Source: Amoebophrya sp. A120 (lineage: Eukaryota > Protista > Dinoflagellata). Taken from it: 64,000 nucleotides of DNA. This document shows positions 5,720 through 34,820 of this stretch, piece by piece. The notes below the pieces were generated by a model. That model was not told the DNA's origin. It made no database searches and saw nothing but the letters and a program-made list of their open reading frames with translations. Location: NCBI GenBank assembly GCA_905178155.1, contig CAJINV010000006.1:2582658-2646657 (forward strand). Reading direction: 5' to 3'. Made by a program: the position numbers and the translations under genes. Position 1 is the first letter of the stretch; each line of letters begins with the position of its first letter.

Positions 5720-8700
5720 TCACGCCGCTTTACCAATGACCTGCAGCACTAGGTTCTTCGCAGTGCAGGTCGGCGGAGATAATCGTTTCAACGCTATCTC
5801 ATACGTTTTTTTCGTATTCCTGCTAGAACGAATTCTATGATCAACATCATTCAAAGCGTCTTCAGAACCACGACCGGCCCCTCCTTCTTCTTCTATCGCA
5901 CCAATTACTGGCTTATCAATTGCAAAAATGTCTGGGTCTGGAAGATTCTGAGACTTGTCATGCACGTTTTGCCTGGGCCATGATGTCTGTGATGCATGCC
6001 CTAGCTTCACAGACTTTTTGAGGGCTTCGTGATGTTGCCTATTCCGCATGACAAATGCCCTCTCCGCGTAGCCAAAATTGCATTCCCTTTGCTGCTTATG
6101 CAATACAGATTTTTTTGGAATTCAAATGCAGCATCACAAGTTCGGATCCTTCCAGACCCAGACATTTTTGCATTTGATATGGCTGTTGACGGACCAAGAA
6201 GTTCCGCTCCATCACATACAGTGCCCGGTCGTACTCCAGAAGCATCTTGGCTTCCTCGCATTCCAGATTATCCGCTGACTTCGTCAATAACTCAAAGTAG
6301 TCGACGAGATTTGTCGTAGAAGTGGTGGTCTTTTGCTTGTTCATTTGTCGACGGAACATGGCCAGGCGGTGCCTCATATGCCTTGCAAATATCCCTGGAT
6401 GTCTGGAAACTTGTAATGCTGGGCGGCGTATCATGAGGAGGCCACACGTGCTGGCTCAGCGTGACAAGTTTCGGAGCTTCCAGGTGTTGCCTATTCTGCA
6501 TGACAAACTGCGGTTCTGCATGACAGAAAAAAGGGGCTCTTGGGTGACGTGCATGACAGATTTAAGAGTCATGCTTATGCCAGACAAGCATGACAAACAT
6601 GCATTCTCCCAGACCCAGACATATTTGCGCTTGATATCTCAGCGTTTTTGATCGGGGGAACTGGAAATCTTCAAACTGATTTGCTGTCCTGTAATGATCA
6701 AAACGGCGATTTATTATTTCCACCGGCTTGAAGCAATCCAACTGTAATATCTTCCCGTGGCAGCAGGGCACCAAAACGCAGTCCGCGTTCTTCAGCAAGC
6801 AAATCTCCAGCACCAAATCAGAGAAATTTCCGCAGCAGTGCAGCCCCAGGCCGAGGGAGAAGGAGGCGTTTCTTCCTAAAATGTGGGAATCGTCGTTCGT
6901 CACCGTGAAGGCCAAATCCGAAACTACTGCCTTCACGTTTTTCAGACCCGCCAACTCTATCGTAAGGAAAAATCCCTCATCCCCATATCAAAAAGAAAAT
7001 TTGGGATGCTGATTTGTAGCCACAAATCAACTTTGTCTTGCGTACAAGGCAAACGGCACCCGCCATTTGGCACATTTTACAGCGACTCTGTCATGCCTTT
7101 TCGCCTATGTCCGACCTGTTTCTCATGCTCAGCTGCTAGCCGGATGCGTAGTTGTACCCAACTGGGCTTAGCATATGCCAGAACGCTCTTGCTGCAATAC
7201 AATGTTTGTTTGTGTACACAAATCCAGCAATACAAATTGTCTTTTGAATATAATGGGGTGGAGGCGTTTTTCATTCTGATAAACTCCGCCCGCTTTTTTG
7301 CCATATGACTTGCTCAAACGTTACAATCTCAAACGTTACAATAGAATCTGAGATTTGTCTTGCATGATGAGCATGACAGGTTCGCAGAGCGTTTCACTTT
7401 CTGCAATACAAATTTCGCCAGATTGTAGTGGGGTTTGATGCTCCGGAACCTGTCATGCGCAATCCTATGAGAATTGACTAGATCATGCATTCTTGCATCA
7501 CAGATTTCCAAATTCTATTGTAACGTTTGAGATTGTAACACCTGAGCGGGTTATATGCCAGGTCCACGGATTCTTTGTTCTTGTCGAGGAGGTATCAAAT
7601 GTAAAAATGTCTGGGTCTGGAAGAATGCAACTTGTGATGCTGAATTTGGATTCCAAAAAAATCTGTATTGCATGAGCAGCAAAGGGGGTGCGATTTTTGC
7701 TACGCGGAGAGGGCATTTGTCATGCGGAAAAGGCATCGCGAAGCCCCCAAAAAATCTGTGATGCTAAGGCATGCATCACAGACATCATGGGTCAGGGAAA
7801 ATATGCATGACAAGTCTCAGAATCTTCCAGACCCAGACATTTTTACATTTGATAGGAGGAGAAAGGTCGTGTTGGGCAGGAGAAAAGCGAGGGGCAGGGT
7901 GAGGTTACCGGACCCGCAACCGAAATCCACGATATCGTAGTGCGTTATTTTCGTGTCATTTGTGTTGCTGCTGTGCATGGCAGAATTTTCGTGGTCCCCG
8001 TCTGTTTCTACCTCTGTAGTTGTCTTTTCCTCTATCCTCATTTCCCGGATCATTTGGTAGATGTTCTGAATTTGCTGCTTCTTCCGAAAGTCCCGCGCGG
8101 CGGTCATAACCGGTGTAGTGAGTCGCGCGCTCGACGTTCTTGTCGAAGTGGCGATAGAAGTCGAAGCGGCTCGTCCTGCAGGAATTATACTAACTGCGCT
8201 CCTGTCGCCTCCAGAGTTGTTATTGCTACAACTTTTGTCACCAGCGACCTGTTCTACTACTTCCGGTGTGCCACTGCTGTCGCTGCGCAGCCCTTGTTGT
8301 TTCCCGTGCTTCTGCAGTCTTTCTGCCATCTGCTCTTCCGTGATATCGCCATCGGCAACTTGCTTCTTCAATTTCTTTATCAAATGTAAAAATGTCTGGG
8401 TCTGGAAGAGTGTAGCTTTGTCATGCAGATTTTCCATGACCCATGAGGTCTGGAATGCGGGACTTAGCATGACAGACTCTGCGAAGTCTCCGCCATGCCT
8501 GTCCTGCATGAGAAACTCCCTTCCAACTTGGTCAAAAGTGGACAGCTTTTGGCACTCATGCAAAACAGATTTTTGCATGCTTCAGATTTACCATGACAAG
8601 TTGCAATCTTCCAGACCCAGACATTTTTGCAATCCATATTCTTCAAAAATTTTTCCAACCGCTTCGCCTCCGCTTTCAGCAGGTGTGAGTATCCTGTGCA

Positions 8701-9602
8701 AAAGTATCGTATTCGTAGTAATTGCTGCTATGCATGACAAATCTCTCTCTTAAGGGAAAACAGCATTACAAGTTTCATTTGTAATGCTGAGCGAATTTGT
8801 AATGCAATTTATCCTAGTACGACGCTTTTGCATTCGATAGAGAGGAAGAAGGAGGAATTTCGTGTTTTCCTTCGCGCTGCCCGTTTTTAGTATAATTGGC
8901 ACTCTGTTCATCTTTTGAAGCTTGTCCGGTTAGTATTTTCTGTGCTATTGTTGCTCCATGACCACCACTACCCCCTCCTCCTCCTTCCCCTGAGACCGCC
9001 CAGATCTGTTCCAAACTACCACTTCCGGTCAAGCAGCTCGGGATCGTGTCCCAGGGAATCGCGAATTCGCTCGACAGCTCGATCTCCGGGAACTCCAGGA
9101 AAAGGTCCAGTTTTGCCGTGTTAAACGTCGAATAGGGTTCTTCTTTCGTCTCCTCGGATGTGATTGATTCCCCGTCAAGAACGTCCAAATCTTCGATATC
9201 TGTACTGAAGGACCGCGCGGAAGAGGGGGATGGAGAGTTGCTTCTAGCAGGGTCGTTCCTCGTCTCGAGAGCATCTTCATCGCCTTGTCGGGGGAATATT
9301 CTGCGGTCTCGTCCCCCCACCGTAGCAACAGGAATTCCTCGTTGTGCCCGATCGGACAGGCCTGATTCGGGTGGGCAAGGGGGACAAATGAAGTCGTTAT
9401 TTTTGCCGGCGCTCTCCAATAAATCATCGGAACTTGTTCCTGTAGTTGCACCAGTCCTACCGGGGTAATTGTCCAAATTGATGCTGATTTCTGCCAACCT
9501 GGGCAGTCCGCTCAACGCTTGATCTAAGATCTTTTGAATCCGGCTCTGCTTCTCGGCGGCGCGCCGCTGCCGCTGCCGCCGTTTGTGGTCGTTGTCGCGC
9601 AT
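5720..9602 (-). CDS. GSTCD-like / Methyltransf_32-type SAM-dependent methyltransferase, multi-exon
   Basis: Spliced pieces YDIVDFGCGSGNLTLPLAFLLP, GLHCCGNFSDLVLEICL...VLVPCCHGKI, AKMLLEYDRALYVME, LSPPTCTAKNLVL; ATG 9602, TGA 5722-5720; seven introners. Confidence 0.8.
5914..6179. mobile_element. Introner family A
   Basis: TIR; DR tggct. Confidence 0.9.
6377..6636. mobile_element. Introner family A
   Basis: TIR; DR cctca/tctca. Confidence 0.88.
6958..7281. mobile_element. Introner family E
   Basis: TIR tatc...aggaaaaatccc..ccccatat; DR aactc. Confidence 0.85.
7322..7537. mobile_element. Introner family F
   Basis: TIR tacaatctcaaacgttacaatagaat; DR not clean. Confidence 0.8.
7593..7854. mobile_element. 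Introner family A (reverse orientation relative to 5914-6179)
   Basis: TIR; DR ggagg. Confidence 0.9.
8378..8638. mobile_element. Introner family A
   Basis: TIR; DR ttctt. Confidence 0.9.
8690..8839. mobile_element. Introner family B
   Basis: TIR; DR gtgag/gagag. Confidence 0.88.
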
Positions 9603-10313
9603 TTGAAAAATGATGTCTCGCAGCTTTTACAAATCTGATCACTATACAGGTGTGCGAAAAAATGGGAAATTCTACATCTACTACAAATGGGAAATTCTAC
9701 TACTTAGTTGCTGGAACAAGTAAGTACATCATGTTCGACGGCTATTTATTTTTGACACCTACAACTACTCGCTCTTGAGCTGGAATGAAGAACTAGAATC
9801 AGGCTACTAAAACCCTTTGTCGCCTGCAGGGAAATGAGAAAAGCAAATACAGCTAGTCGCAAAGACACAAAAGTTGTCGTCTCCCTTCAACCTCACAAAG
9901 CGCCGCGTGAGTTTTCGGCCGAAGATCCTCCTTTGAGCCAATTTTGCTGCCGCGAAGGAACTTTCGGATCGACACGACGATCCGCAAATTTATTGGACCC
10001 AATACAAATCAATTCGTTTAAAACCGCTGATCTCGAGAGCGCCACCTACTTGCAACACGTAGGACAACGATCATCTTCCACGAACTACAACCCTGTGCTC
10101 GTCCTTCTTTGCCTGGTGATATCATCAGGCTAGGAAACCATAAAAAAAGTCTTGCTTTTCACCATGATGAAGCACAAATGTTATTCTTCGAAGTCAAATC
10201 AATTGACTCAGGTCGTACAGCAATCCGGCAGCCTTGCTTTTGTGCTGCTGTCCCCGTAATTATATCATTGTCCACCTCTCCTCGAACAGTTCCCGCGCAG
10301 TTGTTGTGCCATC

Positions 10314-10369
10314 GTCTACTAAATCAGACCGTGCGAAAAATTCAACTAGCAGCACGGTCGTCACTAGAC
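10314..10369 (-). promoter_or_regulatory. Candidate SECIS element in 3' UTR of the DsbA-like gene
   Basis: Minus strand GUCUA-GUGAC-GACCGUGC-loop-GCACGGUC-UGAU-UUAG-UAGAC: helix I, UGAN/NGAN quartet, perfect 8-bp helix II; ~230 nt after the stop codon. Confidence 0.72.
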
Positions 10370-10595
10370 TATTTTTCAAACTGACAAACCACAGAGAGGA
10401 AGTTTTTATGCTAGGACTTCAGTTTTACTAAAATGATGCTGAAATAGTGCTGAAAACCGTATTTCATCTACTGCAAAGAGCCACAACCGACCTCGAAACT
10501 TTACACAAAGGCGCGGGGTTTTGTGAGTAAGAAAGCCTGAAAAAAGACTGCATCAGCGCGTACTCACCATACTGCGGGGACGTCGCTCGGAAATT

Positions 10596-13254
10596 CTACC
10601 TTCCACCCGACGATGTCGATTCAGAAGTGCTCTTTTATCAAATGCAAATATGTCTGGGTCAGGAAACTTGTAATGCTGAGTTGTGAGTAGTGAATTCTCT
10701 CTAATGCACAGCCAAGCATGAGAAATATTCGCGCGGCTTAGTGTTGCGCTTTCCGCATGCCAAGCTGTGTTTTGCATGACAAGCAAAAGGGTCTCTTCTT
10801 GGACACGCATCACAAAACTCTTCCGTCATGCCAGACAAGCATGACAAACCTTGCATCCTTACAGACCCAGACATATTCGCAACGCATATCTTTAAAACCC
10901 TGTCAAAAGCTCGGATTAAGTTCTCCGGTTCCTGGGCCCCCGAGATCGCGACAACCGGCTCGAAAATTTCCCCTGCTGAACATGCGCCATCGTGGTCTTC
11001 TTCAGGAACCGTAGTTCTTTTCGGTGCACCTTCATTATCGCGGCCACTAGCAGCAAAACTCCTACTATTCAACCCGATAAAAAAAGCCGGTACTCCGTTG
11101 ACCGCGTATTTTCCCTTGTGGCTTTCTTCCAACAATGTGCGCACTTCGGACGCCAAAAACGTTGTATCAAATGTAAAAATGTCTGGGTCTGGAAGAGTTC
11201 ATGTTTGTCATGCTTTTCTGGCGTGATTCTTAAATCTGTCATGCACGTTGCCCAAGCGCTCCGTTTTTCTGTGATGCAGAAGCGCAGTTTGTCATGCAGA
11301 GTAGGCAACACCTAGGAGCTCAGAAACTTGTCATGCTGAGCCAGCATTTGTAGCCTCATCATGAGACGCCACCGAGCATCACAAGTTTCCAGACCCAGAC
11401 ACTTTTACATTTGATACGTTGGGTCGCTTTCCAATTTCTCGACCCATTTCGCCTCGATTTTTGCCGCCAGTCCGATCTTTATTAAAAGGAAAAATCAAAT
11501 CCCCCCCTCCCCATCCTCCAAGGGAGACTTGTGTAGCATGATGTGTGATCACGAGTCGCGTTGTCATGCTAGAAGGGATGAAGAGATGGTGCAGAAGACT
11601 GTAGTTCTGGCTGGCGTGGGAAAGCTTTGCGTCTTCAGCATGACAGGAAGCAACTGGAAACGGGAAACAGCGTGACAAATTGCCTGCAAACGAGGAAGCA
11701 GCTGCGTCTCTTGGCCCTCTAGCAATACAAGTTGATTTGTCGTCACAACTCAGCATCACAAATTTTCTTTTCGATATGGGGAGAGAGGAAATTTTTTCGC
11801 CACAATAATCTTTTTCAACGTGTCAAACTCCCCGATCCAGTTCTCCTTCTCGAAAAAATTGTTGAAAAGCATCTCCTATCCTGTGCAAAAGTATCGCACT
11901 CGTAGTAATTGCAATCATGCATTACAAATTTTTTTCTGGAGGTAAATCCGCATTACAACTTTTATTTCTCATGCAGCTGAGGAAGTTTGTAATGCATTTA
12001 GACGAGTACGATACTTTTGCAACGCATATCTCCACGACCGTGTCCTGCTTTTGCATATGGGAGTGTCAGGACCGAAATCCACGAGGTTGAAACAGTTTGT
12101 CATGCACAAAACGGAAGCCACAAAATGCCTGTCTTGCACCAGAGGTGGCAAGTGAGGCGGATTCTTGTGACGAGCCTTTTACTTTTTGAAACTAGAAATA
12201 GAACTGCTAAAGCAGCACGACAGAACCAAACTTCTTCGCCCCAAACAGCGTGACAAATTGGATTTCGATGCTACCAACATTTGTAGTCTTGCGCCGCTTA
12301 TAAAGTGCGCTTCCAGCAACTCGCATCGGTTTTGTGCATCACAAATTTTATTGCAACTTTGTCCATTTCGCTCCTGACGCCTCCATATTGCAAAGACCCG
12401 CCGTACTCCGGTCGCGAAGCCAAATAGATCAGGCGGTGGGAATATCAAATGCAATTATGTCTGGGTCTGCAAACTTGTGATGCTAAAATGTGCATGATGA
12501 AAACAACTTCCGAATGAAGCCCAGCATGACAACTTCCCAAAACGCTTTCTCATAGGCAATCCGCATGAGAAACTGCGTTTTTGCATGACAAAAGAGGCTG
12601 CGACTTATTTTGTTGCTTATGCAATACAGATTTCCCAGGATTGTAGAGCTAGCATTACAAGTTCCAACCTTCCAGACCCAGACATTTTTGTAGTGCATAG
12701 GGAATTAAAGGTGTTGCCGGTGTAGCCCTCGTAGTTGAAATTTATATCCTCCGTTCTCCCCACCTTCTGCAAGTAGGGAATGATCTGGCTCGCCCGGTCG
12801 GGGCCGAATTTTTGCTCGTAGTAGTCCCTTTTCCGTACCTTTTCGGCTTGGGGAAACTGTGGGTTCAGCTGAAACGGCAACCATTCGATGTTGAAGTTCA
12901 CGTTGGTTGCAACTTGGTCATCTTCAGCAGGAGTTTGCTGTGTGTGTTCTTGTGCGGTAGTACTTCTATTTGCCGTCGTATTGTACTCCTTTATCGCGGT
13001 CTCCAGTCGGCGTTTGCCGACGAAACACCATTATCCTGTGCAAAAGTATCGCACTCGTAGTAATTGCAAATATGCATGACAAATCTTCTTCCTAAGGTAA
13101 AACAGCATTACAAATTTCATTTCTCATGCTGAGGAAATTTGTAATGCAATTCATACTAGTACGATGCTTTTGCAATTCATAACCATGGTCAGACCGTGTC
13201 CGACACGATCTTGATCTGGATCTGCCGCGCGGCCTGCTTCCTCGCGGGCTGCAT
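10596..13254 (-). CDS. DsbA/FrnE-like thioredoxin-fold selenoprotein (Sec at codon 22)
   Basis: MQPARKQAARQIQIKIVSDTV-TGA-PW|CFVGKRRLETAIKE...IEWLPFQLNP...YTGNTFNS...VNGVPAFFIG...ISGAQEPENLIRAF; TGA at 13191-13189 replaces first Cys of CPWC; seven introners; stop TAG 10598-10596 after removing introner plus one DR. Confidence 0.88.
10636..10888. mobile_element. Introner family A
   Basis: TIR; DR tcttt. Confidence 0.88.
11165..11416. mobile_element. Introner family A
   Basis: TIR; DR cgttg. Confidence 0.9.
11480..11807. mobile_element. Introner family E
   Basis: TIR; DR atctt. Confidence 0.85.
11877..12028. mobile_element. Introner family B
   Basis: TIR; DR tctcc. Confidence 0.9.
12056..12387. 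mobile_element. Introner family D
   Basis: TIR tatgggagtgtcagga.cgaaat; DR ttgca. Confidence 0.88.
12443..12699. mobile_element. Introner family A
   Basis: TIR; DR gggaa. Confidence 0.88.
13032..13181. mobile_element. Introner family B splitting the UPWC motif
   Basis: TIR; DR accat. Confidence 0.9.
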
Positions 13255-13755
13255 GGTCGTTGAATGAACTATCGTCCCTGACCGACGAGCGAAAGAAAAC
13301 AACTGGATGAAATAATTATTCCAGTATAGTTGTAGTAGCCAAGTGGTAAAAGCCAAAGCACCTATGTCGTGCAGGGTTGGGTGCTAGAAGTAGCGCCTCT
13401 AGGTGGACGAGTTGTTGGACGAGACCTGATGGCTCGGGAAGTTGCGCTTGAAAAAGACTTCCAGTCATGCTCTTGTGGACGATGAAGAATATCTGGTCTT
13501 GATAAACACCTGGTTCTACTCTCGTTGTTCTGTTACAGTGCCCGTCTTGCCCTCTCTCTGTCAAATGCACGGTCGTTGTTGTCGAACACGATTGATTTTT
13601 CTTTGGACCACGTGATGTGGAGTATTGAAAACGTCATTTCTGCTCCTTTTTCCATCACCCTCAATGATCTTCGCCACTATAGAATCAATACCGGTGCTAC
13701 ATGCAACTGTGACCAGCACACTGCTCGGACTACATCTATTCCGCAGGAGCTTCGG

Positions 13756-16700
13756 TCAAATCCTTCTCTCCAACCCGAGCAATTTTTGCCTCGCCATCGC
13801 CCCAAGTACCCGCTTCTCTTTCCGCCGTTGCCGCAACACCGCGTGTCTCTGGTGTCTTTTCCGCGGTTGGAAGTAATTCAGCGCCTTGCGGGACTGCCAC
13901 TCGTAATTTACTTGGAGAGAAGAAGAAGGTGGCACTTTTGTTCCATCGGTGTCAAGTTGACAAGCAGCAGCAGTTTCGTCATTTCGGCCCCCAAAAACAG
14001 TTAACGCAGTACAACTATCAGAAGCGAAGCTTGTCGTGGGTTTTCTGTCAGAGAAACCTCTAGTGCGCAGCCTCGCTGTTGACGCTTCTGCTCCTTCACG
14101 CGGTCGAAAGCTCAGTTTCCGTTTCAAATAGTACACTTTTCCCTTGTGCAGAAACGAAAACCGCTCCCGGTTCCGCCAAGACCGCTCGGGCGGGTGGATG
14201 AAATTCTTCGTAGTGCATCCGGGTAGCAGCTTTAGCTCGTTTTCCTCGATGACCAATTGCGCCTCATCTGCATGATCCTTGTTTATGTTGGTATGGATTG
14301 CAAATATGTCTGAGAGGTCTGGAAGATTCCAACTCGTCAAGCTAAGTCCGAATCATGCAAAGATCTGTGTTGCACTGTAGTGCCAAAAGCTGCCCACCTT
14401 CGACCAAGCTGGGAGCGAATTTCTCATGCAGGAGAGGCATGATAGAGACCTCGCAGAGTCTGTCATGCTAGGTCCCGCATTCCAGATTCATGGGCCATAG
14501 AAAATTTGCATGACAAGTTTACACTCTTCCAGACCCAGACAGATTTGCATTTGATAGTTGGGTCCGTCTGGCAAGAACCGCCTCGCCGTCGCGTCGGTGC
14601 TTGTTGTGCTCCCGCCCGCAATACCAGTTTTTGAAGATGAGCCGATTTGGCTTTCTTCGCGCCGTCTCTGCTCCACTTGTTGTTCCACTTTCGTGAACTG
14701 CAGCGGAAAGCGGGTGCTCAGCGTTGTTGTTGAGCTGGTAGTTCTTGCACCAGTTGAAGGTCCTCTCCCTCTTCTTCTACTAGCGATGTTCAGGGTTTCG
14801 TCGTCCTTTCGTTCAAGTTCGTCTTCACTGACGGAAGACAGCTTGATGTCCTGGTGGCCCCCCTGCTGATCTACCATTTGATGTTTATGGATGTGTCAGG
14901 ATTGAAATCGACAAAGTTGAAATAACTTGTAATGCATAAAATGAATAAAAAGTTGTGGCCCAGTTTCCAAGTGGCACATGACAAATTTGGGTAGAACCGA
15001 AATCCAGTTTGTCATGCTGTTTGGGTAAGGATGACGCCTTTTGTCATGCTACTTTAGCAGCTCAGTGTCTACCCCTTAACAGGCTTACAATCTGCCTCGC
15101 TTGCCTACTCTGCAAGGCAGGCACTTTGTGGGCTGCATTTTATGCATGACAAACTCTTTCAACTTTGACAATTTCAATCCTGACGCTTCCATAATGGTCC
15201 TGCTCCTTGTACAAATGCGCCATCTATCAAATGCAAAAATGTCTGGGTCTGGAAGAATGCAACTTGTGATGCTGCAGTTGGATTCCAAAAAAATCTGTAT
15301 TGCATGAGTAGCACAGGGAATGTAATTTTTGGTACGGTGAGAAGAAATTTGTCATGCGGAATCGGCATCAAGAAGCCCTCAAAAAGTCTGTATTGCTACG
15401 GTATGCATCACAGACATCATGGCTCATGCAAAACGTGCATGACAGGTGTCAAAATCTTCCAGACCCAGACATTTTTACAGTTGATACCATCACGGCGTCG
15501 GGCCGCGGAGGCATGCCCCGCATGGCGAGTCGCTGCTCCACCAGCAGGGCTTTCTCGTCTTGTTGTTCTACGGTGTCTTCTTCATGCGGGCCTTTCTTGA
15601 TGTTCCCAGGTAAGAGCTGTGCAACAAGGGCGGGACCATCTTGTCTACTAATTTTCCGCAAGGATGAAAAGTACTCCGTCGCGTGGTCCTCCCCCGTAGT
15701 AGAAGAAGTTCCAAGCAGCCGCATCTCCTCGGCGATGCTCTTTCCCAACCTGTTTTCTCGCTCGGAAGTTAAGCCTGTCACGCAGTCCCCGGCCGTGATT
15801 TGTCCCTTCTCTTCCAGTATGAACTGCAAAAGTATCGCACTCGTATAAATGCATTTTAAATGCATTTATGAGAATAAATTTGTAATACAAATTTCCTCGG
15901 CATGAGACATAAAATTTGTAATGCGGATTTACCTTAAAAAGAAGATTTGTACTGCACGATTGCAATACGAGTACGATACTTTTGCGCAGGATATCCAGCT
16001 CCTCTAAGACGAAGGTTTTCCAGTCCGATTTCCCCATGCAATACAAGTAACTCGACAAGGAAAAAGGCTTTGCGATGATCGGGTGCGGAAGCGGTTTGCA
16101 ATTCGGCAGATTCTCATACCGAACGAAATCGAACGCGCGTTTCTTCGTTTGTTTTTCGATCAACCCGGCGAGGAATGGTTTGGAAAACTGCCCGAATTTC
16201 CGCACGTAGTCGACCACTTCGATGATGGAGATGGTAGAAAAACACCGCGTGAACAGCGCCGTCAACTCCGCGTTGTGCATATGGAAGCCTCAGGTTTGAA
16301 ATCGACAAAGTTGACCTGATTTGTCATGCATAAAATGCAAAGCACGAAGCGCCTGTCTTGCCGGGATGGCAAGTGAGGCAGATTGTCAGTCTATTTAGGG
16401 TTTGACTTAGAGCTGCTAAAGGAGCACGACAAAAGCAGTCTTCTGTGCCCAAACAGCATGACAAATTGGATTCCAGTGCTCCGAAAATTTGTCATGCACC
16501 AGTTCGAAATTGGGCTCCCAACAACTGGCATCGATTTTATGCATCACAAGTTATTTCAACTCTGTCGATTTCAATCCTGACACCCCCATAGTGCACCGTC
16601 CCGAAATAATCTTCGCTGCAGTGCCGAATCAGGTTTTCGTAGCTTTGTTGCGAGTACTTCTCCTATCCTGAGTAAAAACGTCCCCACTCCATAGTCACGA

Positions 16701-19700
16701 ACGATGGGAAATCTGCTCGACAAATCGACCAGCTTTGGTTGTTGCGCATGACAAGTTTGGTCTCGTAGTGCGATGCTGCTTAGCTCGTGGAGCAGCATCA
16801 CAGATCTAGCCTGTCATGCTGATTGGAGCATTGCAAACTCCAAAACACGACTAGAGCATGCTTCTCATGGGGCCGCGCATGACAAACATGTTCCAGCATG
16901 CAGACCTGCATGGCGATTATGGGGTGGGGACGTTTTTACATAGGATATCTCCCGAAACAACGCGATCCGGTGACACAGTTTCAAACACTTCTCCGCGGGA
17001 ATGAACTTCACGAGTTCATTATGCATTGCAAATGTGTCTGAGGTTGCAACTTGTGATGCTGTCTTTCGATTCCAAAAAAATCTGTGTTGCATGGCCAGCA
17101 ATAGAAACGCAGTTTGTGCTACGCGGAGAGGGCATTTCTCATGCGGATTAGGCAGCAGAAAGCTCCCTAAAGGAAATCTGTGATGCTAGGTCATGCATTA
17201 CGGGCATCATGGGTCATGCAAAGCATGCATGACAAACCAGGCAATCTTCCAGACCCAGACATATTTCTTGCACTGGATATTGATACTTGAATACCGTGTG
17301 CAAATCCTTCTGCGAGAGGCGGTCAACATCTAGAACCCGGACCCGAATCGGCCCCTTGCTCGGGTCAAACCAGGTCCCGAGTTTTAATCGCTTCTGCCGC
17401 TGTCGGTAGGTGAGGGAAGAAGCGTTCGCAGGAGTAGAACCGTATGAAAGTGTCAGAATCGAAATTGACAAAATCGAAATAATTTGTGATGCACAAAATC
17501 GACGCCAGTTGGAGCCTCGGTTTCCAAGTGGCGCATGACAAATTTCGGAAGCACCAAAATCCAGTCTGTCATGCTGTTTGGGCAAAGAAGACTGCTCCTG
17601 TCATGCTACTCTGGCAGCACATCGTCTTTCCCTAAACAGGCTTGCAATCGGTCGCATTTGCTTGCTCCCCAACACAGGCCATCCGTGCTCTACATTTTAT
17701 GCATTGCAGATTTTTCGATTTTGTCGATTTCGATCCTGACAGTCCCATAAACCACTTCTACATGATATCCTGTGCGAAAACGACGTCCCCGCCCCGCAGT
17801 CAAGTTGGAAAATCTGCATAGAGAAATCAAGATCAACACGCTTTGGCTGTTCTTGCGCATGACAGGTAGTTTGGGTTCGCAATGTCATCGCGTTGCGGTT
17901 GCGCTAGTGCAGCAGCATCACAAATCTCGCATCTCATGCTGATTCGAGCTTCACAAATTTCAAAACAGCACTAGAAAATGCGTCTCATGGGGTTCAGAAA
18001 GGGAAGCATTTTAAGCATGAGGTTTGCACCACCACTCTGGGTTGGGAACGTTTTTGCAGCTCAGGATAGTACTACAAATCCGGCTATCGTTGTTCATCTC
18101 CGCAGCTTTCGCCAGGAATTTTAACGCCCTTTTTTGCCCTCTGCCTACACCCGGATGTAATAGTTGCAGAGCTTCTACTGAGGTTGAAGACCCTGTAGTA
18201 CTGCTGCTGGAGCCGGGTGATCCTTTCCCCGCGACGGCTATTGCAAGGAAAAATCCCCCCCTCCCCATACTCAAAGGGAGATTTGCGTAGCATGATTTGT
18301 GATCACAAATCACGTTGTCATGCTAGAAGGGAAGAGATGCAAATTGTAGTGCTGGCTGGCGTGGGAAAGCCTTGCGCTTCAGCATGACAGGAAGCAACTG
18401 GAAACGGGAAACAGAGTGACAAATTGCCTGCAAACGAGGGAACAGCTGCGTCTCTTGGCCTTCTAGCAATGCAATTCGATTTGTGGTCACAAATCTGCAT
18501 CACAAATTTTCTTTTCGATATGGGGAGGGAGGATTTTTCCTTTTGATAACGGCGGCTCTCGAACTAGAGCCCGCCCGATTCGCTTGCTCCAGCTCCGATT
18601 GGAGAAACTGCCGTTTCGAAGAAAAATGATCTTCGTGGGTCTGAAATAAATTCTTGTTCCTGCTCTTGTCAGGCGCAGTAGTGTTTTTATTCCCATCACC
18701 CGCGTAGTACGAAGGTGTCGTTTGCACGCAACTTGTATCAATCTTCCGGTTTTCGTGGTATTCTGGGCGTTTTTTGTACGGACCGGGTTCTTCGGTGTCA
18801 AGGAGTTCGACTCTGGTGGCTATCACAATGAAAATTGCCCCTACCCCCGAACTTGAAAGCATTTGCATTGCAAACTTTTCCAAACGAAACACTCGCTCTC
18901 TTGCATCTATCAGCATCACAGATTTCCGCTCGTGAATAGCAAAAATTTGTATTGCAGAAGATCCCAGCAAGAGCGGCGTTTGTCATGCAAGCGATGCGAA
19001 ACAGGCCTAGACTCTGCATCAGAAAGGTTCACTCTCCTTTCACGCATAGATAAAAAGTTCTTCATTTGAAAACCTTATGCATCACAAATTTTTTGCAACT
19101 TTGGGGGTGGGGGCAATTTTCCTCGCGATAGTGGCTTCCATTGGTCTCTTTGTCCTCGGAAAATCATCTTCAACCCCGTGGTCTTTTTTATCAAATGTAA
19201 AAATGTCTGGGTCTGGAAACTTGTGATGCTGTGTGGCGTATCATGAGGAGGCGACAGTTGCTGGCTCAGCATGACAAGTTTCGGAGCTTCTAGGTGTTGC
19301 CTATTCTGCATGACAAACTACGTTTCTGCATGACAGAAAAGTGGGGCTCTTTGGTAATGTGCATGACAGATTTAAGAGTCATACCAGACAAGCATGACAA
19401 ACTTGCATTCTTCCAGACCCAGACATTTTTACATTTGATATTTTTCCCCTTTTATTTGCAACAGACCGCTGTGGTCCTCGTCAACAGCGCCTCGTCTCAA
19501 GCCAGAAAGGGATGCTGGTGAAGTTCTTGCGGCGACAACAGAACTGTGTCCTACTACCTGTTGTACCCTGTCACAGTTGTACTCCGGCCCCCGCTGCACT
19601 GGGTCCACGACGTCCACACTTTCTTCTTGTTGGTCTACTTCATTTGCAGGAGCTTCAGTCGCCGTCAATGCTTCTCCGGCTACCGTGCTGTTGAAGGCTG

Positions 19701-24390: not shown

Positions 24391-27300
24391 TCACACGACC
24401 CTCAACATCCACACATCGCCCCCCGGCAAAACCGAGATTTCCCGGATATTCCTGCCGACCGCGAATGTCTCTACCTATCAAGAAGAAAAATCCCCCCTCC
24501 CCATATCAAAACGGAAATCTGTGATGCATATTTGTGGTCACAAATCAGCTTTGTCATGCTAGAAGGGAAATACAGTAGTGGTGCTGGGTGGCGTGGGAAA
24601 GCCTTGCATCTTCAGCATGACAGGAGGCAGCTGGAAGTGGGAAACAGCATGGAAAATGGCCTGCAAACGAGGCCACAGTGGCGGCTCCTGGCCTTCTAGC
24701 ATTACACGTCGATTTGTGTACTCAAATACAGCATCACAAATTTGGTTTTCGATATGGGGTGGGGAGATTTTTCCTTTTGATACTACCTGCTCCTTCACTT
24801 TTCCCTCCCGATTGCCAAACCCGGTGCCAGCGAGGACTAAATTCGTGTTGAGCACGGCCCAGTCGTTCAAATCGCGAGCCAAATTTGCGTAATCGTTGTC
24901 GAAGAAGACGAAGCCCAGCTGACTATCCTAGGGAAAAACGCTCCCACCCCACAGTGAAGATGGGGCTCGTGCTGCACAAATCAAGAAGGTTTGGCTGTTG
25001 CGCATGACAAGTTCGTGATAGATTTAGGTGGTGCAACTGCATCACAGATCGAATGGCGTATTCTTGTTTTCCCAGCATGACAAACTCTACCTCCCAGATA
25101 GGGGTAGCATTTTTACAATAGTTCCTCATGGAGCTGCTGCGCATGAGAAACGCCTCAGGTTAGTTGCGAATTAGCATGACAACTACGGGGTGGGGACGTT
25201 TTTGCTTGGGATACTGACTGCTCATCCCCGAGGTCCGAAAAGTGTCTGCGAAAGAGTGCGCCAAGTCTCGCACGAAATATGAGAGTGCTGACAACTCCCC
25301 CTCCCCCTCATTTGTTAAGCATGAACAGCAATACAAACACCAGCACACGTGGAGCCTGTGCATGACAAATTCATGCAGTTCTAGTGTAGTACTGTTTGGG
25401 GTCGTTCCGGAATCATCTGTCATGCTAAAAGTGCCACAGGGAAGCACTTCGATTTGGAGCTTTGCATGACAAATGAGAGGGAGGAGAGGCTATTTTCACT
25501 GTCATACGAAAGAGAGCCGGTTCTGAAAAGTTGGATTGATGCTAAACTGCTCCTGCACGGTATGAACTGCAAAAGTATCGCACTCGTATAAATGCATTAC
25601 AAATTTCCTCAGCATGAGACAGGAAATCTATTATGCAGATTCACCTTAAGAAAAAGATTTGTATATGCATGATTGCGATACGAGTACGATACTTTTGCAC
25701 AGGATACACGGACTCAAACGTCAATTGCGCTTCCTGGTCGGTTACCAAGTGCAAATATGTCGGGGTCTGGAAACTTGTGGTGCATGTCAGTGAATAGAAA
25801 GCGCACTGTAATGCACCGCCAAGCATGACAGATGTTCTCGTGGCTCTGTGTTGCGTATTCCGCATCAGAACCATCGTTTTTGCATGACAGACAAGACGAG
25901 GTCATCTTCCGATGTTGGCCCCACGCAATACAGAGTTCTGAGTCATGCTAAACTAGCATGAGAAATCTCGCAATCTTCCAGACCCAGACATATTTGCAAT
26001 GCTTATCGGTGGGAAAGGTGCAATCGGGAGAAGATGGTGATGGTTTTACTGCTGCTTTATTTTGCCCGTCTTGTTCCTGCAATGTGAAAGAATTTGCGTT
26101 CCCAGCTTTTCTTGCAGCCCCGCATCCCACCAAGTGAATCCAGGGGTCCACTAAATACAGCCCAATGGAGCTCGCTCTATCCAGAGCAATAAATACGTCT
26201 GGGTGTGGAAGCACCAGGTTTCGCATGACCAAGAGAAGATAGAGTGCGGGCTCAGCATCACAAATTTTCTTGAGAAGGATCCTCGACGCCTAGTCTGTGT
26301 GAGAAGAAGCGTTGCCTGCTTCTCGTAAGTACTTACTCCAAAATTGGGCACCTGCTTTGCTGGTCATGCAATACAGATTCTTGCGTCGATCAGACCTAGC
26401 ATCACAAACTCAGACTCGTCTTCCAGGCCCAGACATATTTGCAGTGGATACGTCCACCTTCCCAACAAGTCCAGCGAGAAGGCGTAGTTTTTTCCGACTC
26501 CCTATCCTCTGTAAAAACGTCCCCTCCCCAGAGTTGTCATGCATATGTGCAATGACAGGAACATTTGTAATGCGCAGCTCCACGAGACGAGGCATTTCCA
26601 ATGGTGTTTCGGAATTTGGAATGCTGTAAACAGGATGCGAAAGCGGCTTTCTCGTGCGGCTTCCACCTTTGCCAACCAGCACTACACTGCAGAGAGAAAC
26701 TTGTCATGCACAGCTATAACAAAACTTGGAGATTTGTGTTGCTAGATTCCCAACTTGACTATGGTGTGGGGACGTTTTTACGCAGAATACTCCCAGAATC
26801 ACCCCCAACCGGTATCCAGGAAAAAAACTGTGTGAGTGTAACTTTGTAGAAACAGCAGCAAACGCAAAGCATCACAAATTCGATTTGCATTACAGAAAAA
26901 ACCTGTCGTGCGCAGATAGCACGTGAAAACACGTATGAAACACGGCTATGACGCACTTCCAGCATGGCAAGTGTAACTGTTTTGCATTTTTTGCATCACA
27001 GATTTACACTTACACAGTTTTTTTCTACTTGCATAGCCGGTTTGCCGCGTGCACTTGGAGGTAATCGGGGAGGGAAAGGGTTGCTGGGTGCAGGATTTGT
27101 ACGCTTGTGCTGCTAGTTGTTTGTTGTACTGCTGGCACTGTAGTTGGTGGTGAAGAGGCCGCGCTACCTGTACAGAGACGAAGGACAAGGATGCTGCGCT
27201 GAGTGTTTCTTTGTATACGAAAATTCAAGCTTTTCATATTATCGAAATGAAGCAAAGGTCCAGGGAAATAAGCGTGGACATTGAAGCCTGACCACCTCAC

Positions 27301-28779
27301 GAGGACTCTGCAAAAAGTGAAAGAACGCGAGGCTAGTAATATATGAAGTTGTGAACTTATCTAAAGTGAATATGCGTGGAAGTACCAGGTCCTGTAGTTA
27401 TTTGTTCTCCCTCTCCTTCCGTGCCCATTGTTCCCACCACCCCGTCCTCCTCGTCATCCCCGAAGATGCTTTGTATTGCGTTGTCGCCTAAAATCGTGTT
27501 TTTCTGCGCAGCGCCGCTCGCTCCGTTAGAATTTATTTCTACTCCGGTGGAATCACTGCTACTACCAGTTTTGCCACTTGGTCGTGCCGGGCGCACAGAT
27601 GCCTTTTGCGTGACCGGCCGGTGCGTGGTTTTCCGAACCTGGGGGCTGTGGTATGCATTGCAAATAATATGTCTGGGTCTGGAAGTAGAATGGAAGTTTG
27701 TCATGCTTGTCGCTCATGACTCCTAACTCTGTGCTGCATGAGCAGGATGGGAGTCGCGTGCCTGTCATGCAATAGCGCAGTTTGCCATGCGGAACTCGCA
27801 ACACATAGCAGCTCAAGAACTTGTCATGCTTGGCTGCGTATTGCAGTGTGTCCACCATTCCCAAGCCAGCATCACAAGTTTCCAGAGGACCCAGACATAC
27901 TTGCATTTCATATGTGGTGCGTCGTGGCGATGTCCTGCACCCGCGGAATGATGGTGGGCGGGTTGGTCGTTCTCTGGTGTCCGCGGGAGGAGGATGCGTG
28001 ACCGCCGGGGACTCCAGGGGCCGAATTTCCATTTCCATGCGATGTGGAGTCAACAGCGTCGTAACTTCCATCATCGTCCTCGTCAAAGAGAGTCTCAACG
28101 TCCGCGCTGCAGCAATCCAACTGAATCTCGTTGTTGTAAAGGCTCGTTTGCTATGCAGAGTGCAAACAGGTCATCTGGGGGGTTCTTCGACTTTTTCGTT
28201 CTCCAGCCAAAAGATTAAGTCGCGAAAATGCACAACAAACTCCTGAAACTTGCATTTTTTATCCACACTAGCATTTTTGCAATACAGAATTTATTGGATT
28301 TTGCAGCTGCTCTGAGTCAGCAGGCACAACACGAAAAATGCTTTTACTAGCCCAGAACCTGTGATGTCCCTTTGCATAAGTAGAGCACCCGCGACGTGTA
28401 CAGTTGGCCCAGCAAAACCGCGGCCAGCAGCATATCCTATGTAAAAACGTCCCCACTCCATAGTCAAGTTGGCAAATTGCAACACAAATCTCCAAGTTTT
28501 GGGAGTTGCGCATGACAAAGCTCCATCTGCAGTGTAGTGCTGGTTAGCAAGGGCAGCCGTGTGAGAAGCCCCGCTTCTCATCTTCCTGTTTACAGCATTA
28601 CAAAGTCCAAAACACGATTGGAAATGCCTCTCATAGAGATGCGCACTCCATCAAATGCTCCTGTCAGTGCGCATTTGCATGACAACTCTGGGGTGGGGAT
28701 GTTTTTGCTGAAGATACAGCACCAGCGCCAGCTGCTTTTTCCCGGAGTTGTTCTCCACTTGGGAGATGGGGCTGGTCAT
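24391..28779 (-). CDS. Type II membrane protein with divergent Methyltransf_24-like class I methyltransferase domain
   Basis: N-terminal anchor KKQLALVL|LAAVLLGQLYTS; spliced RLGVILGVGKNYAFSLDLLGRW...LYLVDPW, YFVRDLAHSFADTF, LGFVFFDNDYANLARDLNDW...VLAGTGF...VKEQV|ETFA...DVWMLRVV-TGA. Confidence 0.62.
24476..24782. mobile_element. Introner family E
   Basis: TIR; DR ctacc. Confidence 0.9.
24924..25213. mobile_element. Introner family C
   Basis: TIR; DR ctgac. Confidence 0.85.
25561..25706. mobile_element. Introner family B
   Basis: TIR; DR cacgg. Confidence 0.9.
25743..26005. mobile_element. Introner family A
   Basis: TIR; DR tcggt. Confidence 0.86.
26178..26450. mobile_element. Introner family A (diverged)
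   Basis: TIR; DR cgctc/cgtcc. Confidence 0.8.
26503..26789. mobile_element. Introner family C
   Basis: TIR; DR ctccc. Confidence 0.88.
26813..27035. mobile_element. Introner family G
   Basis: TIR tat...gaaaaaaactgtgt.agtgtaa; DR accgg/gccgg. Confidence 0.86.
27652..27912. mobile_element. Introner family A
   Basis: TIR; DR tgtgg. Confidence 0.86.
28433..28716. mobile_element. Introner family C
   Basis: TIR; DR cagca. Confidence 0.88.
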
Positions 28780-29949
28780 GATTAGAAAATTATCTCCGGC
28801 TATTGGTCCCCGTAGTCGTCCGTGGTCAAAGCAATTGCTCGCTCACGCGGGGCGGATGAGCAGCTGCACTTCCACCTGTAATTTCAACAAGACGACTTGT
28901 TCTCGTCAATGTTCAGTGCCCGAGCTGCGTGTTCTTGCACAGAAGAAAAATAAGCGCCATCCTTGTAAATCAAAAACACACGACTAGTACAGCCACCGAA
29001 GCGACAAAGATCCAAGTAAACTCACACTACGTTTACTCAGAATCAGAATCAGAAAGTTTCAAAAAATGCGCGAACCACGAGGGGATGCCGCTAGAGAGGA
29101 GCAACGTGCGCTTACAATAAGATTGATCATGTTCTTACGCGAGACGCGACAAAACAAGTAGGACAGCGTCGTACTTTCGGAAAACAAAATGACAACTACT
29201 AAGCTGGTTCCTTGCGTACACCACACTCAACAGCATGATCCTGAAAGAACGGCGGTAGCGTTGATCGTGAAACAAGAATTATGGTAGTGTATCCTTATCT
29301 TCGTGACCACAACAAAATCAAACGAACCGGCTCGTTCGCAAAGAAAGTAAGGCGGAACACGGAAATAAACCGCAAAGAGCAGACACTGCACCACACCAGT
29401 CAGTGTGCAGCCTGAAAAAAAGCGATGGGCGCTGTAGTACTGCCAGGATTTTTTCGAACAAAGGTCCGCCGGACCGATGAGGTCATGTTTTGGAGGTACA
29501 GTGGGCGTTACTTATAGTGCCAACATTTTTCATCCGAAATAACATTGACGGAACCACGATTCATTTGAAACGCGTCTAGTACAGGGAAGGGGTAGCCAAA
29601 GGAGCCAAAAGGAGTAAACATTTTTACTTCGCGGAGTTTTTAATGTATTGCATATATTTTTTGACGATGACATAATTAGGATTACGGTTCCGATAAAAAG
29701 AATGACTGAAGCATAATACACGACTACTTCTTGCGACATTTGCTCTTTGTCATTTCCTGTTTCATGCAGATGAAGGATACAGCGCTGTGACAACGTTGAT
29801 GTTGAAAACTACAAGCTCATATTAATCGACTGCGAGTGATGCTGGTTTGCTCTGATACAGGGGAAAAAAATTTCATAATACACGACGACATTGCCCGTTC
29901 TAGCAAAATTTTGAAATTTCTACTCGTAGTTTTTTTATACAAAGCAAAT

Positions 29950-31496
29950 AACACTTCCCTGATGCAAAATGTGCCTGATGCGTCGATGTGCTGATGAAAA
30001 TGAGATTGTGAAAAGGATATGTCCGGGAGGCGTATGCCAACCTCGCCATCAATCAAAAAGCTCCGCTAGCTTCCGCGGTGGTGGCCTGTCGTTCTCGTTA
30101 TTTCTCTTCGGCAAGACGTTCGGCTTTTTTCGGCAGCAAAATGGGGCGCCGCCTTTAAGCATTGCAGCTGCCCATCAGGCGCTGCGCCATTGCAAAAGAG
30201 CCAAAAAGTGCAGCAAAATTGCTGGAAAGATGTATTTTTGGAGCAACTATCAAGCGGGCAGTACTCAAAAGCTGGATTTTTGCAGGGAGCGATTCAAATG
30301 AGGTCTTTTTTGGGGAAAAAAGCGGTCCAAAATGACCTCTATCTGGATCGAGCGTCAGGTCGTGATACCGGCTCTCGATGGTTCCCAAGATAGAGGTCCG
30401 GATGGAGGCCCTCCATGAACGAAAACCACCGATACAGGTCGGGGAACCGAAACCGAATTCATTTTCACCGAATCGCGGCGCTGTGGCGCCTTTTTTCAAC
30501 ATTTCTGCGCCCCCACCATCACCACCATGCCCTTCGCGCCCCTGTGGAGTGGCGCTCTACAGCCCGAACTGCTCGACCGTTAGCTCCGGGGCCGCCACGA
30601 TCCCCCGCGACCCTTTGCGCGCCTAGCTTGCCTCGCCCATGCACCTCCTCGAGCCACATGGAGCACACAGAAACGCCCAAACCATACTCGTGATTTACCT
30701 TCAAGCGGCCCCCCTTCGCGTGGTTGGCGCTCGAGCCCCGACGGCGTCGGCCGGTGCAATAGCGCACGAGATTGCCCCTCTTTGGGGGCTTTCCGTGGGC
30801 ACATACCCTCCGACGCCGTAGCGGCCGTGGGGTTTAGAGCTTGCGCTCCTATCCCAAGGCATTTCGGCCCGGGGTTTGCGGCTTCGTGGAGACAACAAAG
30901 TAGTCGCAGGCTGCGCTTGTTGTTTTGTTTGCTGGCAAAGCGGCCCGCATGATAACAATGCGATCAAGCCATGCTGGGGTGGGCCCAGGTCTTTCATGAG
31001 CGCAGGCCCAAAACCCTGCCCGCCGCCACCTAGCAGAAGCAACTACGTCCGGCGGTGTATCCGCCTCGGTTTGAAGATAGGCCGCGGGGCCCCTTTCAAA
31101 CAGGTGGCGCGCATGTCTTCCCCAGGACGGCCTAGCAGCGCTGCTGCCACTTATATTTTTGACTGCTTTCGTTTTTGACTATGTAGGGCTGCTTAATTCC
31201 GCTCGTTTCTTCTGCGTGACAGATGTCGCCTATGTATCTAATTCAAGTTGAGAGCGAGCTAGATGTTTGGCTTCATACTCTCTTCGGCGGCGTCTGGGAA
31301 CCGGGAACAAAACATCAAAAACGTATGACAGAATAAGTCTCGTTTTGTTTTACAACTTTAAGATGTCAAATGGTTGAAGAAAAATTTTTGAATCGCCTAC
31401 TTTTGAATCGCTGAATCCATCCCATAAACACTTCCCTGATGCAAAATGTGCCTCATGCGTCGATGTGCTGATGAAAATGAAATTGTGAAAAGGATA
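29950..31496 (+). mobile_element. ~1.4-kb GC-rich insertion flanked by 70-bp direct repeats (possible degraded non-LTR retroelement)
   Basis: 70-bp repeat at 29950-30019 and 31427-31496 (2 mismatches); degenerate TGAATC repeats before the right copy; weak RTE-like peptide LRHCKRAKKCSKIAGKMYFW. Confidence 0.5.
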
Positions 31497-31642
31497 CTTA
31501 CTGTAATGTGGCATAGAAAATCAGACAACTAACCGCTACGACTGATTGAACTGAGACTACTTCTTCTATCTAGTGCTACCTGCTTTTATTGTTCTTCTAC
31601 TACAACAACTTCTGCTCCATTTATAATGAATTCCCGCCCTTT

Positions 31643-33845: not shown

Positions 33846-34773
33846 TTTTTTTTGTCCTCGTGAAGGCCGTTTGTTTTTGTTACGACGCAATCACTTCTGT
33901 TGATTCTGTTACAGGACTTCCTTCTTCCGACAGAAGTTCCTTACTGCTTCTTATTTCTAGAGGCAACGTGGGACAGTAGAAACACTAGAAGTTGGTGGGA
34001 GAAGAAAGTTCAACAAGTGGGAACTGGTTTTATTCGGTTCAGCGTAGATTTAGCATTCATGACATCCAGGTCCGGGGTGCTGGTAAGTACTTCGGTAAGA
34101 ATATTATGCGAAGAAAATTATGAGGACGAAACTTTCTGGAATATCAGTAGACTGTTCTTGGACGTCGAGACTACAGTTCTTGTTCTTCGGTTATGCTGTT
34201 GGACTTGTACTACTTCGGTTATGCTTTACTGTACGGAGGTGGACTTCTAGCCTCAGTTGTACGCAACGTCACTACCAGTTTGCAGTTCAGAGGTGGCGTT
34301 CAGTATATGCTCGTATGGAAAGAGTAGAGAGTTGAGCTTCGTTGTACTAGCATCTAACAGACTAGAGGACGAGGCATACGATCGTACTTCTGGAGTGCGA
34401 GGCATACGACCAGCATTGCCAAGATGGACGGACACACGTAGTCGTAGAGCACGTTTAAAAGATGTTCCGACGTGGCGCACGTTTTGATTTGTGTTGAACG
34501 TTGAACGAAAGGTTTTTTGCAATACGACGCCGGCTTGAGCTAGTTCTACTTTGCTCTGTGAACTACTGCGTCCCATTCTACTGGGAACAAAAAGCACGTT
34601 GCTGCGAACGATGGACACGAAACGACAGTGAAAGAACTCCTACTCCAGGTTGAAAATATTAGCAGTCCAGAACAAGAGGTGGACGCGGCCGCACTGTTTC
34701 TGTACTCGGCCTGGTACAACTAGCATGTGGCGTAGAAACAAATCTTCACGCACCACTTTCGGAACTGAGGCCA

Positions 34774-34777
34774 AGTG

Positions 34778-34820
<43 letters not shown>

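What the first reader, a model, noticed from the sequence alone, without database searches (positions are those of the whole stretch)
13027..13254. Hidden selenoprotein: in-frame TGA in a DsbA/FrnE U-P-W-C active site split by an introner
Seen: ATG 13254, 21 codons, then TGA (13191-13189) CCA TGG T|introner 13181-13032|GT TTC GTC GGC AAA CGC CGA CTG = SDTV-U-PWCFVGKRRL. Known: FrnE-like consensus is SDxxCPWCyiGkrrL, and Sec-containing DsbA-like proteins occur in marine algae and protists. The ORF track misses this exon. Activity would need both exact non-canonical splicing and UGA recoding within ~10 nt.
Basis: partly seen in the sequence, partly recalled or inferred. Interest (0 to 1): 0.75.

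Follow-up and report, generated by a model that had tools for sequence, protein, structure and literature searches.

The report
Selenoprotein gene split by seven introners
A redox-enzyme gene, likely from the marine parasite Amoebophrya, is cut by seven transposon-like introns that are removed exactly from its RNA, and the stop codon left at its active site is likely read as selenocysteine; both the enzyme family and this kind of intron were already known.

Summary
The minus-strand gene runs from ATG 13254 to TAG 10598 (299 codons, 8 exons). Seven TAT...ATA elements with 5-bp direct repeats interrupt it.

RNA-type contigs show all seven joints at the predicted lengths. Joint 1 skips 155 nt, the element plus one repeat copy. 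It also appears in an independent metatranscriptome and is absent from a DNA-like run. The TGA at codon 22 is unedited in spliced contigs.

The TGA sits at the first Cys of CPWC (51 of 52 homologues). TGA-forms are common in metagenomes. A SECIS-like hairpin lies in the transcribed 3' UTR (10369-10314) but lacks the apical AA. A general UGA=Trp code finds no support: 13 of 13 other Trp codons in two genes are TGG. A published table lists the selenocysteine-to-protein pathway as detected in Amoebophrya A120.

Sec insertion itself is inferred, not shown. Verdict: a new member of the known DsbA/FrnE-like UxxC selenoprotein family inside known introners. One useful extra: a GT...CAG pair in intron 1 is not used in the major transcript.

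The parts
13255..13425 (-). 5' UTR (no ATG; the only ATG in 13490-13255 is at 13468, upstream of the main contig start)
   Evidence: X1 and X2 contigs both begin at 13427; ATG scan
13182..13254 (-). Exon 1 coding part: ATG 13254, codons 1-24 plus the first base of Cys25
   Evidence: 0 other letters in spliced contigs X1, X2, X4, X5
13189..13191 (-). In-frame TGA, codon 22, at the nucleophilic position of U-P-W-C; predicted selenocysteine
   Evidence: unedited in RNA-type contigs
13027..13181 (-). Intron 1: 150-nt TAT...ATA introner plus one copy of a 5-bp direct repeat; contains the unused GT (13183-13182) ... CAG (13038-13036) pair at its edges
   Evidence: joint 13026/13182 skips 155 in X1, X2, X4, X5; depth 0 in X7; fold z -3.9; alternative splice frameshifts
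12700..13026 (-). Exon 2 (completes Cys25; FVGKRRL and WLPFQL motifs)
12438..12699 (-). Intron 2, introner plus one 5-bp repeat (262 nt)
   Evidence: skips 262
12388..12437 (-). Exon 3
12051..12387 (-). Intron 3, introner plus repeat (337 nt)
   Evidence: skips 337
12029..12050 (-). Exon 4 (22 nt)
11872..12028 (-). Intron 4, introner plus repeat (157 nt), same family as intron 1
   Evidence: skips 157
11808..11871 (-). Exon 5
11475..11807 (-). Intron 5, introner plus repeat (333 nt; weak inverted repeat, 12 of 25)
   Evidence: skips 333
11417..11474 (-). Exon 6
11160..11416 (-). Intron 6, introner plus repeat (257 nt)
   Evidence: skips 257
10889..11159 (-). Exon 7: GVP loop (11096-11088, the family's cis-Pro loop by recall), a 36-residue insert, SGAQ motif (10943)
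10631..10888 (-). Intron 7, introner plus repeat (258 nt)
   Evidence: skips 258
10140..10630 (-). Exon 8: last codons, TAG 10598-10596, 3' UTR to about 10140
   Evidence: contigs end at 10151 and 10140; depth 0 at 9900-10137
10314..10369 (-). SECIS-like hairpin: 5-bp helix I, GUGAC (10364-10360) / UGAU (10326-10323) core, 8-bp perfect helix II, AG instead of AA at the apical position
   Evidence: inside transcribed contigs

Best explanation
This is an expressed DsbA/FrnE-like gene whose seven transposon-derived introns are spliced out exactly, leaving an in-frame UGA at the first position of its redox motif that is likely read as selenocysteine, giving a predicted 299-residue thiol-disulfide oxidoreductase. 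Shown: gene structure, exact removal of element plus one repeat copy at all seven sites, unedited UGA, and a 3' UTR that holds a SECIS-like hairpin. Inferred: the hairpin, 1066 nt downstream in the mRNA, recruits the eukaryotic Sec machinery. Inferred from the thioredoxin-fold family: Sec22 attacks substrate disulfides and Cys25 resolves, in the cytosol (no hydrophobic leader by eye), most likely in oxidative-stress defence. Inferred: junctions are set by the inverted-repeat hairpin and the direct repeat, not by GT-AG.
For: Seven of seven joints at predicted lengths in X1 and X4; joint 1 also in X2 and in X5 of a second study; none in DNA-like X7, whose contigs run from the exons into the element. 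One X4 contig of 1596 nt runs from the 5' UTR to the 3' UTR with 0 other letters in its four listed pieces. First position is Cys in 51 of 52 homologues and Trp in 1. That Trp-form, P0001, is sister to TGA-bearing locus L019 at SH-aLRT 99 in a quick tree. Only 1 of about 20 codons that can reach TGA in one step would be this site (19 others). The hairpin is one of 2 strict hits in 128 kb of both strands; 4 of 2000 UTR shuffles match at 8 pairs, 26 of 2000 at 6 pairs. Topoisomerase I in the window matches a protein named Amoebophrya sp. A120 at 98%, uses TGG for 9 of 9 Trp and ends at TAG. PMC7789003 Table S10 lists 'selenocysteine to protein' (5 genes) as detected in A25 and A120. PMC6394959 reports a Sec tRNA and selT, selM, selO in another Amoebophrya.
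Against: No protein-level evidence. No whole genome was held, so tRNA-Sec, eEFSec, SBP2, SecS, PSTK and SPS2 were not searched; the window has no tRNA and Table S10 does not name its five genes. The hairpin lacks AA at 10-13 nt from the core (it has AG), is not unusually stable (z -1.62, 13 of 200 shuffles as good) and has no Rfam SECIS hit. My SECIS grammar was written after I saw the hairpin, so its shuffle counts flatter it. No orthologue from a diverged relative was obtained: raw RNA runs X10 and X11 laid nothing on the exons, and X6 showed no joint. X1, X2 and X4 belong to one study and are labelled RNA by guess. The protein's place in the tree is unresolved.
Confidence: 0.88

Rival explanations
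1. UGA is read as Trp throughout this genome, as in Amoebophrya ex Karlodinium veneficum, giving a W-P-W-C protein without the attacking residue.
For: A congener has such a code (PMC6394959 passages). The best homologue P0001 and 3 of 150 representatives are recorded as WPWC. In that congener UGG is strongly favoured and about half of transcripts show no recoded codon, so two clean genes do not exclude it.
Against: 13 of 13 other Trp codons are TGG and 48 of 48 Gln codons are CAA/CAG in two genes; both end at TAG, whereas UGA appears to be the sole stop in the recoded strain. The window is about 47% GC against an AT-rich recoded strain. P0001 is sister to a TGA locus, so its W is likely a gene-caller reading. 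Caveat: the topoisomerase model P0053 was itself probably made under the standard code.
Confidence: 0.03
2. A recent nonsense allele or young pseudogene: Cys codon mutated to TGA, still transcribed and spliced, making a 21-residue peptide or nothing useful.
For: TGC/TGT is one step from TGA. No diverged orthologue was seen. The SECIS is non-canonical and missed by Rfam. The protein is on a long branch (1.12) with two inserts.
Against: The only stop in 299 codons falls on the exact site where this family uses Sec. The same TGA is in a wild metatranscriptome contig (X5, depth 3.9). All family motifs are intact. A SECIS-like hairpin lies in the UTR.
Confidence: 0.06
3. UGA is read through with Cys or another residue by leaky readthrough or selenium-limited misinsertion, or the true SECIS is another structure and the hairpin is chance.
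For: Apical AA missing; post hoc grammar; 1 similar hit elsewhere in the window, on the + strand at 26225-26276.
Against: Core UGAC/UGAU fits UGAN/KGAW (PMC3753652 passage). G before the core is known from Ostreococcus (PMC2375036 passage). Of the 5 purine-TGA sites in the UTR only this one forms the structure.
Confidence: 0.03

Closest known systems
DsbA-like (COG2761, FrnE; PF01323) UxxC selenoprotein family (PMC1088965, passages and Tables; algal DSBA in PMC7539508, passages; FrnE in Mamiellophyceae and Mesostigma in PMC6627142, passage)
   Same: UxxC motif in SD..U-PWC context, PF01323 homologues, same length class, eukaryote-type 3' UTR hairpin as in loci L018, L019, L041.
   Different: About 30-39% identity to the nearest sequences; inserts of about 20 and 36 residues; seven non-canonical introns; AG in place of the apical AA; not reported from Amoebophrya in the papers I searched.
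Amoebophrya A120-type introner elements (PMC7789003, sections 10 and 11 read)
   Same: Inverted repeats starting TAT, 3-5-nt direct repeats at the exon borders, 150-330 nt, non-GT-AG ends, hairpin fold, removed from RNA.
   Different: Nothing of kind. Here the repeat is 5 bp at all seven sites and the conserved U-P-W-C motif pins the removed length independently of read mapping.
Deinococcus radiodurans FrnE (PDB 5cnw, 5cp1)
   Same: Only solved relative hit (E 0.16, exon 2 alone); shares WC..GKRR.E and W..F.L.P.
   Different: Cys form. Its C-terminal extra cysteine pair (recalled, not from a call) has no counterpart: this protein has only Cys25 and Cys258.
Selenoproteins of Amoebophrya ex K. 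veneficum (selT, selM, selO; PMC6394959 passages)
   Same: Same genus, UGA-Sec with a SECIS reported for selT.
   Different: Other families; no DsbA mentioned (0 occurrences); that strain has a recoded genetic code.

Membership tests
DsbA/FrnE-like (PF01323/COG2761) | Homology over the whole domain | tested here: met
   168.5 bits against a profile of 51 Cys homologues, profile positions 4-213 of 216; all 52 hits carry PF01323
DsbA/FrnE-like (PF01323/COG2761) | C/U-x-x-C motif after the first strand, GVP loop and SGAQ motif | tested here: met
   alignment, positions 22-25, 220, 271
DsbA/FrnE-like (PF01323/COG2761) | Thiol-disulfide exchange activity | not testable with these tools
   needs an assay
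Eukaryotic selenoprotein | In-frame UGA aligned with a catalytic Cys of homologues | tested here: met
   51 of 52 Cys; TGA-forms in 120 selected loci
Eukaryotic selenoprotein | UGA present, unedited, in the mature mRNA with an open frame behind it | tested here: met
Eukaryotic selenoprotein | SECIS core (UGAN/KGAW), helices I and II in the 3' UTR | tested here: met
   10369-10314, transcribed; post hoc grammar
Eukaryotic selenoprotein | Apical unpaired AA (or CC) 10-13 nt from the core | tested here: not met
   AG at that place. Candidates in L019 and L041 also lack AA there as printed. This lowers 'canonical SECIS', less so 'works as a SECIS'
Eukaryotic selenoprotein | Match to Rfam SECIS models | tested here: inconclusive
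   no hit, but also none in 7 TGA-form control loci, whose SECIS elements are themselves unvalidated
Eukaryotic selenoprotein | Sec machinery in the genome | not testable with these tools
   no genome held; literature only
Eukaryotic selenoprotein | Selenium in the protein | not testable with these tools
   needs 75Se or MS
Amoebophrya introner element | TAT-start inverted repeats, direct repeat at borders, repeated family | tested here: met
   thousands of X7 contigs lay on the element (6651 laid)
Amoebophrya introner element | Removed from RNA, present in DNA, non-GT-AG ends | tested here: met
   no sliding position gives GT-AG for any of 7

The most novel reading that the evidence does not exclude
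This locus shows that introner junctions are chosen by the element's hairpin and direct repeat even when a canonical GT...polypyrimidine-CAG pair lies within a few bases, and that this parasite lineage decodes Sec with an AA-less (AG) SECIS on an mRNA whose UGA has seven non-canonical junctions downstream. It would make a natural single-nucleotide reporter of the unknown splicing mechanism and point to a hidden selenoproteome that standard SECIS tools and gene callers miss.
Probability: 0.3. Interest if true: 0.55.

Novelty: new member of a known kind. Interest (0 to 1): 0.3.

Why it matters
It adds a likely unannotated selenoprotein to a parasite of bloom-forming dinoflagellates: two capped searches found no public protein for this gene (weak evidence) while the neighbouring topoisomerase is on record. 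It suggests the parasite competes for selenium and that its selenoproteome is undercounted. The conserved motif gives a read-independent check that introners are removed with exactly one repeat copy, and a decoy GT-AG pair makes intron 1 a good test substrate. Neither component is new.

Tried and rejected
Canonical GT-AG splicing of intron 1 (13183-13036, 148 nt): frameshift, stop after 46 codons; no such joint among those listed, though contigs drop rare forms and 1 and 47 joints were not shown. Removing the element alone or retaining it: stops early. Removing 2 or 8 extra bases keeps the frame but is excluded by the RNA joints.

RNA editing of the TGA: 0 other letters in spliced contigs. An intronless DNA copy: joint depth 0 in X7. 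Low-depth unspliced pieces exist in X1 (depth about 8-13 against about 100), read as pre-mRNA or DNA.

Whole-genome search for Sec machinery: no genome held. ARAGORN on the window: 0 genes. Rfam: no SECIS. X10 and X11 matched only introner ends; X6 (share 0.05) covered part of exon 2 with no joint. Exon 7 search at 49-158 aa: 0 of 1 candidates. Pfam scan of 148 of 200 TGA-read-through frames (minus strand only): only topoisomerase I (4 frames) and one methyltransferase hit, so the code test rests on two genes. No W-form protein matched a fetched TGA locus letter for letter (0 of 4). The tree was the quick one, 119 selected rows (25 of 120 loci; truncated, duplicate and many near-identical proteins left out), and does not place the query. 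No structure was predicted. The ESM Atlas gave no answer. The supplement of PMC7539508 could not be read and may list a dinoflagellate DsbA. Earlier notes on this genome: 0 of 238 mention selenoprotein or selenocysteine.

Full report
Observation. The minus strand reads ATG at 13254, 21 codons, TGA at 13191-13189, CCA TGG T, then a 150-nt element. The element begins TAT, ends ATA, has imperfect inverted ends and a 5-bp direct repeat on both sides. Such elements fill the window: 53 passed a fixed rule against 1 for a displaced-repeat control; a laxer non-overlapping call gave 58 elements and 15,027 bases. This signature matches the A120-type introners in PMC7789003 (sections 10 and 11 read). The window's topoisomerase I exon is 98% identical to a protein its source names Amoebophrya sp. 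A120. The organism is therefore likely that strain or a close relative.

Gene anatomy. Removing each of seven elements with one repeat copy gives one frame of 299 codons ending at TAG 10598, with a single internal stop at codon 22. Retaining any of the first six, or removing them without the repeat copy, truncates the frame. Removing 2 or 8 extra bases would keep the frame, so frame alone does not fix the cut. No sliding position gives GT-AG for any of the seven. The spliced protein scores 168.5 bits against a profile of 51 Cys homologues, covering nearly the whole profile; a start at the next Met (158) scores 28.5.

RNA and DNA. Of 12 runs listed I laid 8. In X1 and X4 all seven joints appear with skips of 155, 262, 337, 157, 333, 257 and 258 nt, the predicted lengths. 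Joint 1 also appears in X2 and in estuary metatranscriptome X5, a different study, at depth 3.9. The pieces covering the TGA have 0 other letters. One X4 contig of 1596 nt spans 13450 to 10140. X1, X2 and X4 are labelled RNA by guess and come from one study, but they have no depth in flanking silent stretches (9900-10137; 13454-13560), whereas X7 has flat depth of 47-48 there, no joint, and contigs that run from both exons into the element. I read X7 as DNA. X6 gave no joint; X10 and X11 laid only on introner ends.

The TGA. The first motif position is Cys in 51 of 52 homologues and Trp in one; that search favours sequences sharing exact words with the query. Among 150 representatives found with P0001, 98 have C, 3 have W and 49 did not match the pattern, several of them starting just after the motif, as expected if gene callers cut at a TGA. 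The Trp-form P0001 is sister to L019 at SH-aLRT 99; the query itself is unresolved. UxxC DsbA-like selenoproteins are published for marine bacteria (PMC1088965, passages and tables) and algae (PMC7539508 and PMC6627142, passages).

Genetic code. A congener reads UGA as Trp (PMC6394959, passages). Here topoisomerase I uses TGG for 9 of 9 Trp, including the 4 conserved Trp columns it keeps (a fifth column is Tyr), CAA/CAG for 31 of 31 Gln, and ends at TAG. The FrnE gene uses TGG 4 times and CAA/CAG 17 times. Two genes are a small sample, but nothing supports recoding.

SECIS. At 10369-10314, 231 nt after the stop and inside the transcribed UTR, lies helix I (5 bp), GUGAC/UGAU core and a perfect 8-bp helix II with 33 nt between the core halves. 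My grammar, written after seeing it, finds 2 hits in 128 kb and matches 4, 8 and 26 of 2000 UTR shuffles at 8, 7 and 6 pairs. Against it: no AA at 10-13 nt (AG instead; criteria from PMC2375036, passage), z -1.62, no Rfam hit. Rfam also missed all 7 control loci. PMC3753652 (passages) notes lineage-specific SECIS forms in Ostreococcus and Toxoplasma.

Machinery. Not testable here. PMC7789003 supplement Table S10 (part 5 read) lists 'selenocysteine to protein', 5 genes considered, as detected in A25 and A120, without naming them. PMC6394959 reports a Sec tRNA and three selenoproteins in another strain.

Mechanism. Shown: transcription, exact removal of element plus one repeat, unedited UGA 2-7 nt before joint 1. 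Inferred: hairpin-guided junction choice. Intron 1 folds end to end (z -3.9, 2 of 200 shuffles) and offers a GT at 13183 and a T-rich CAG at 13038-13036 whose use would frameshift; the major transcript does not use them. This could be avoidance or decay of the wrong product. Inferred: SECIS-directed Sec insertion and selenol-thiol redox chemistry of a cytosolic FrnE-type enzyme.

Novelty. Both parts are known. The scan already holds 148 notes with the words selenoprotein, DsbA, FrnE, TGA (unchecked). Searches for Amoebophrya + selenoprotein gave 5 papers, of which I read passages of one, with no DsbA; introner + selenocysteine gave 0; PMC6176090 and PMC12005148 main texts have no 'seleno'. The library lacks most subscription journals and one supplement was unreadable. 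The adjacency of UGA and introner is what the local density predicts. Verdict: real, well supported, new member of a known kind; interest 0.3.

Noticed in passing
window 13427-13426 (- strand): X1 and X2 contigs both begin exactly at an AG (13427-13426), and X1's contig has 6 further letters that were not printed. This fits spliced-leader trans-splicing at this acceptor; X4 extends upstream past 13450.
   Followed up: partly
window 53743-60502 (- strand): DNA topoisomerase I gene, 754 aa, split by about a dozen introners and several other introns; 752 of 754 residues of P0053 recovered as exact matches.
   Followed up: yes
window 5723-9626 (- strand): 698-codon frame after removing 7 introners; one exon hits Methyltransf_32 (E 6e-6, just below cut-off).
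   Followed up: no
window 13759-17185 (- strand): 597-codon frame after removing 6 introners, no Pfam hit in the exons scanned, ends at TGA just upstream of the FrnE gene.
   Followed up: no
window 12889: One difference in metatranscriptome X6 (depth 14.6, one contig); by my reading it changes Ile to Val in exon 2.
   Followed up: no
window 26225-26276 (+ strand): Second hit of the strict SECIS grammar, on the strand opposite to most genes and overlapping repeat-like sequence; likely chance.
   Followed up: no
L019:950-1010, L041:1080-1130, L018 3' region: TGA-form FrnE genes in metagenome contigs with eukaryote-type SECIS-like hairpins; those of L019 and L041 lack AA at the apical position, that of L018 has AAAA. 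None is found by Rfam.
   Followed up: partly
window 28700-43400 and 48400-53900: Stretches nearly free of called introners, in part with higher GC (up to 58%), against dense elements elsewhere.
   Followed up: no
window 10982 (- strand): The only other Cys (258) lies in a 36-residue insert absent from the aligned homologues; role unknown.
   Followed up: no
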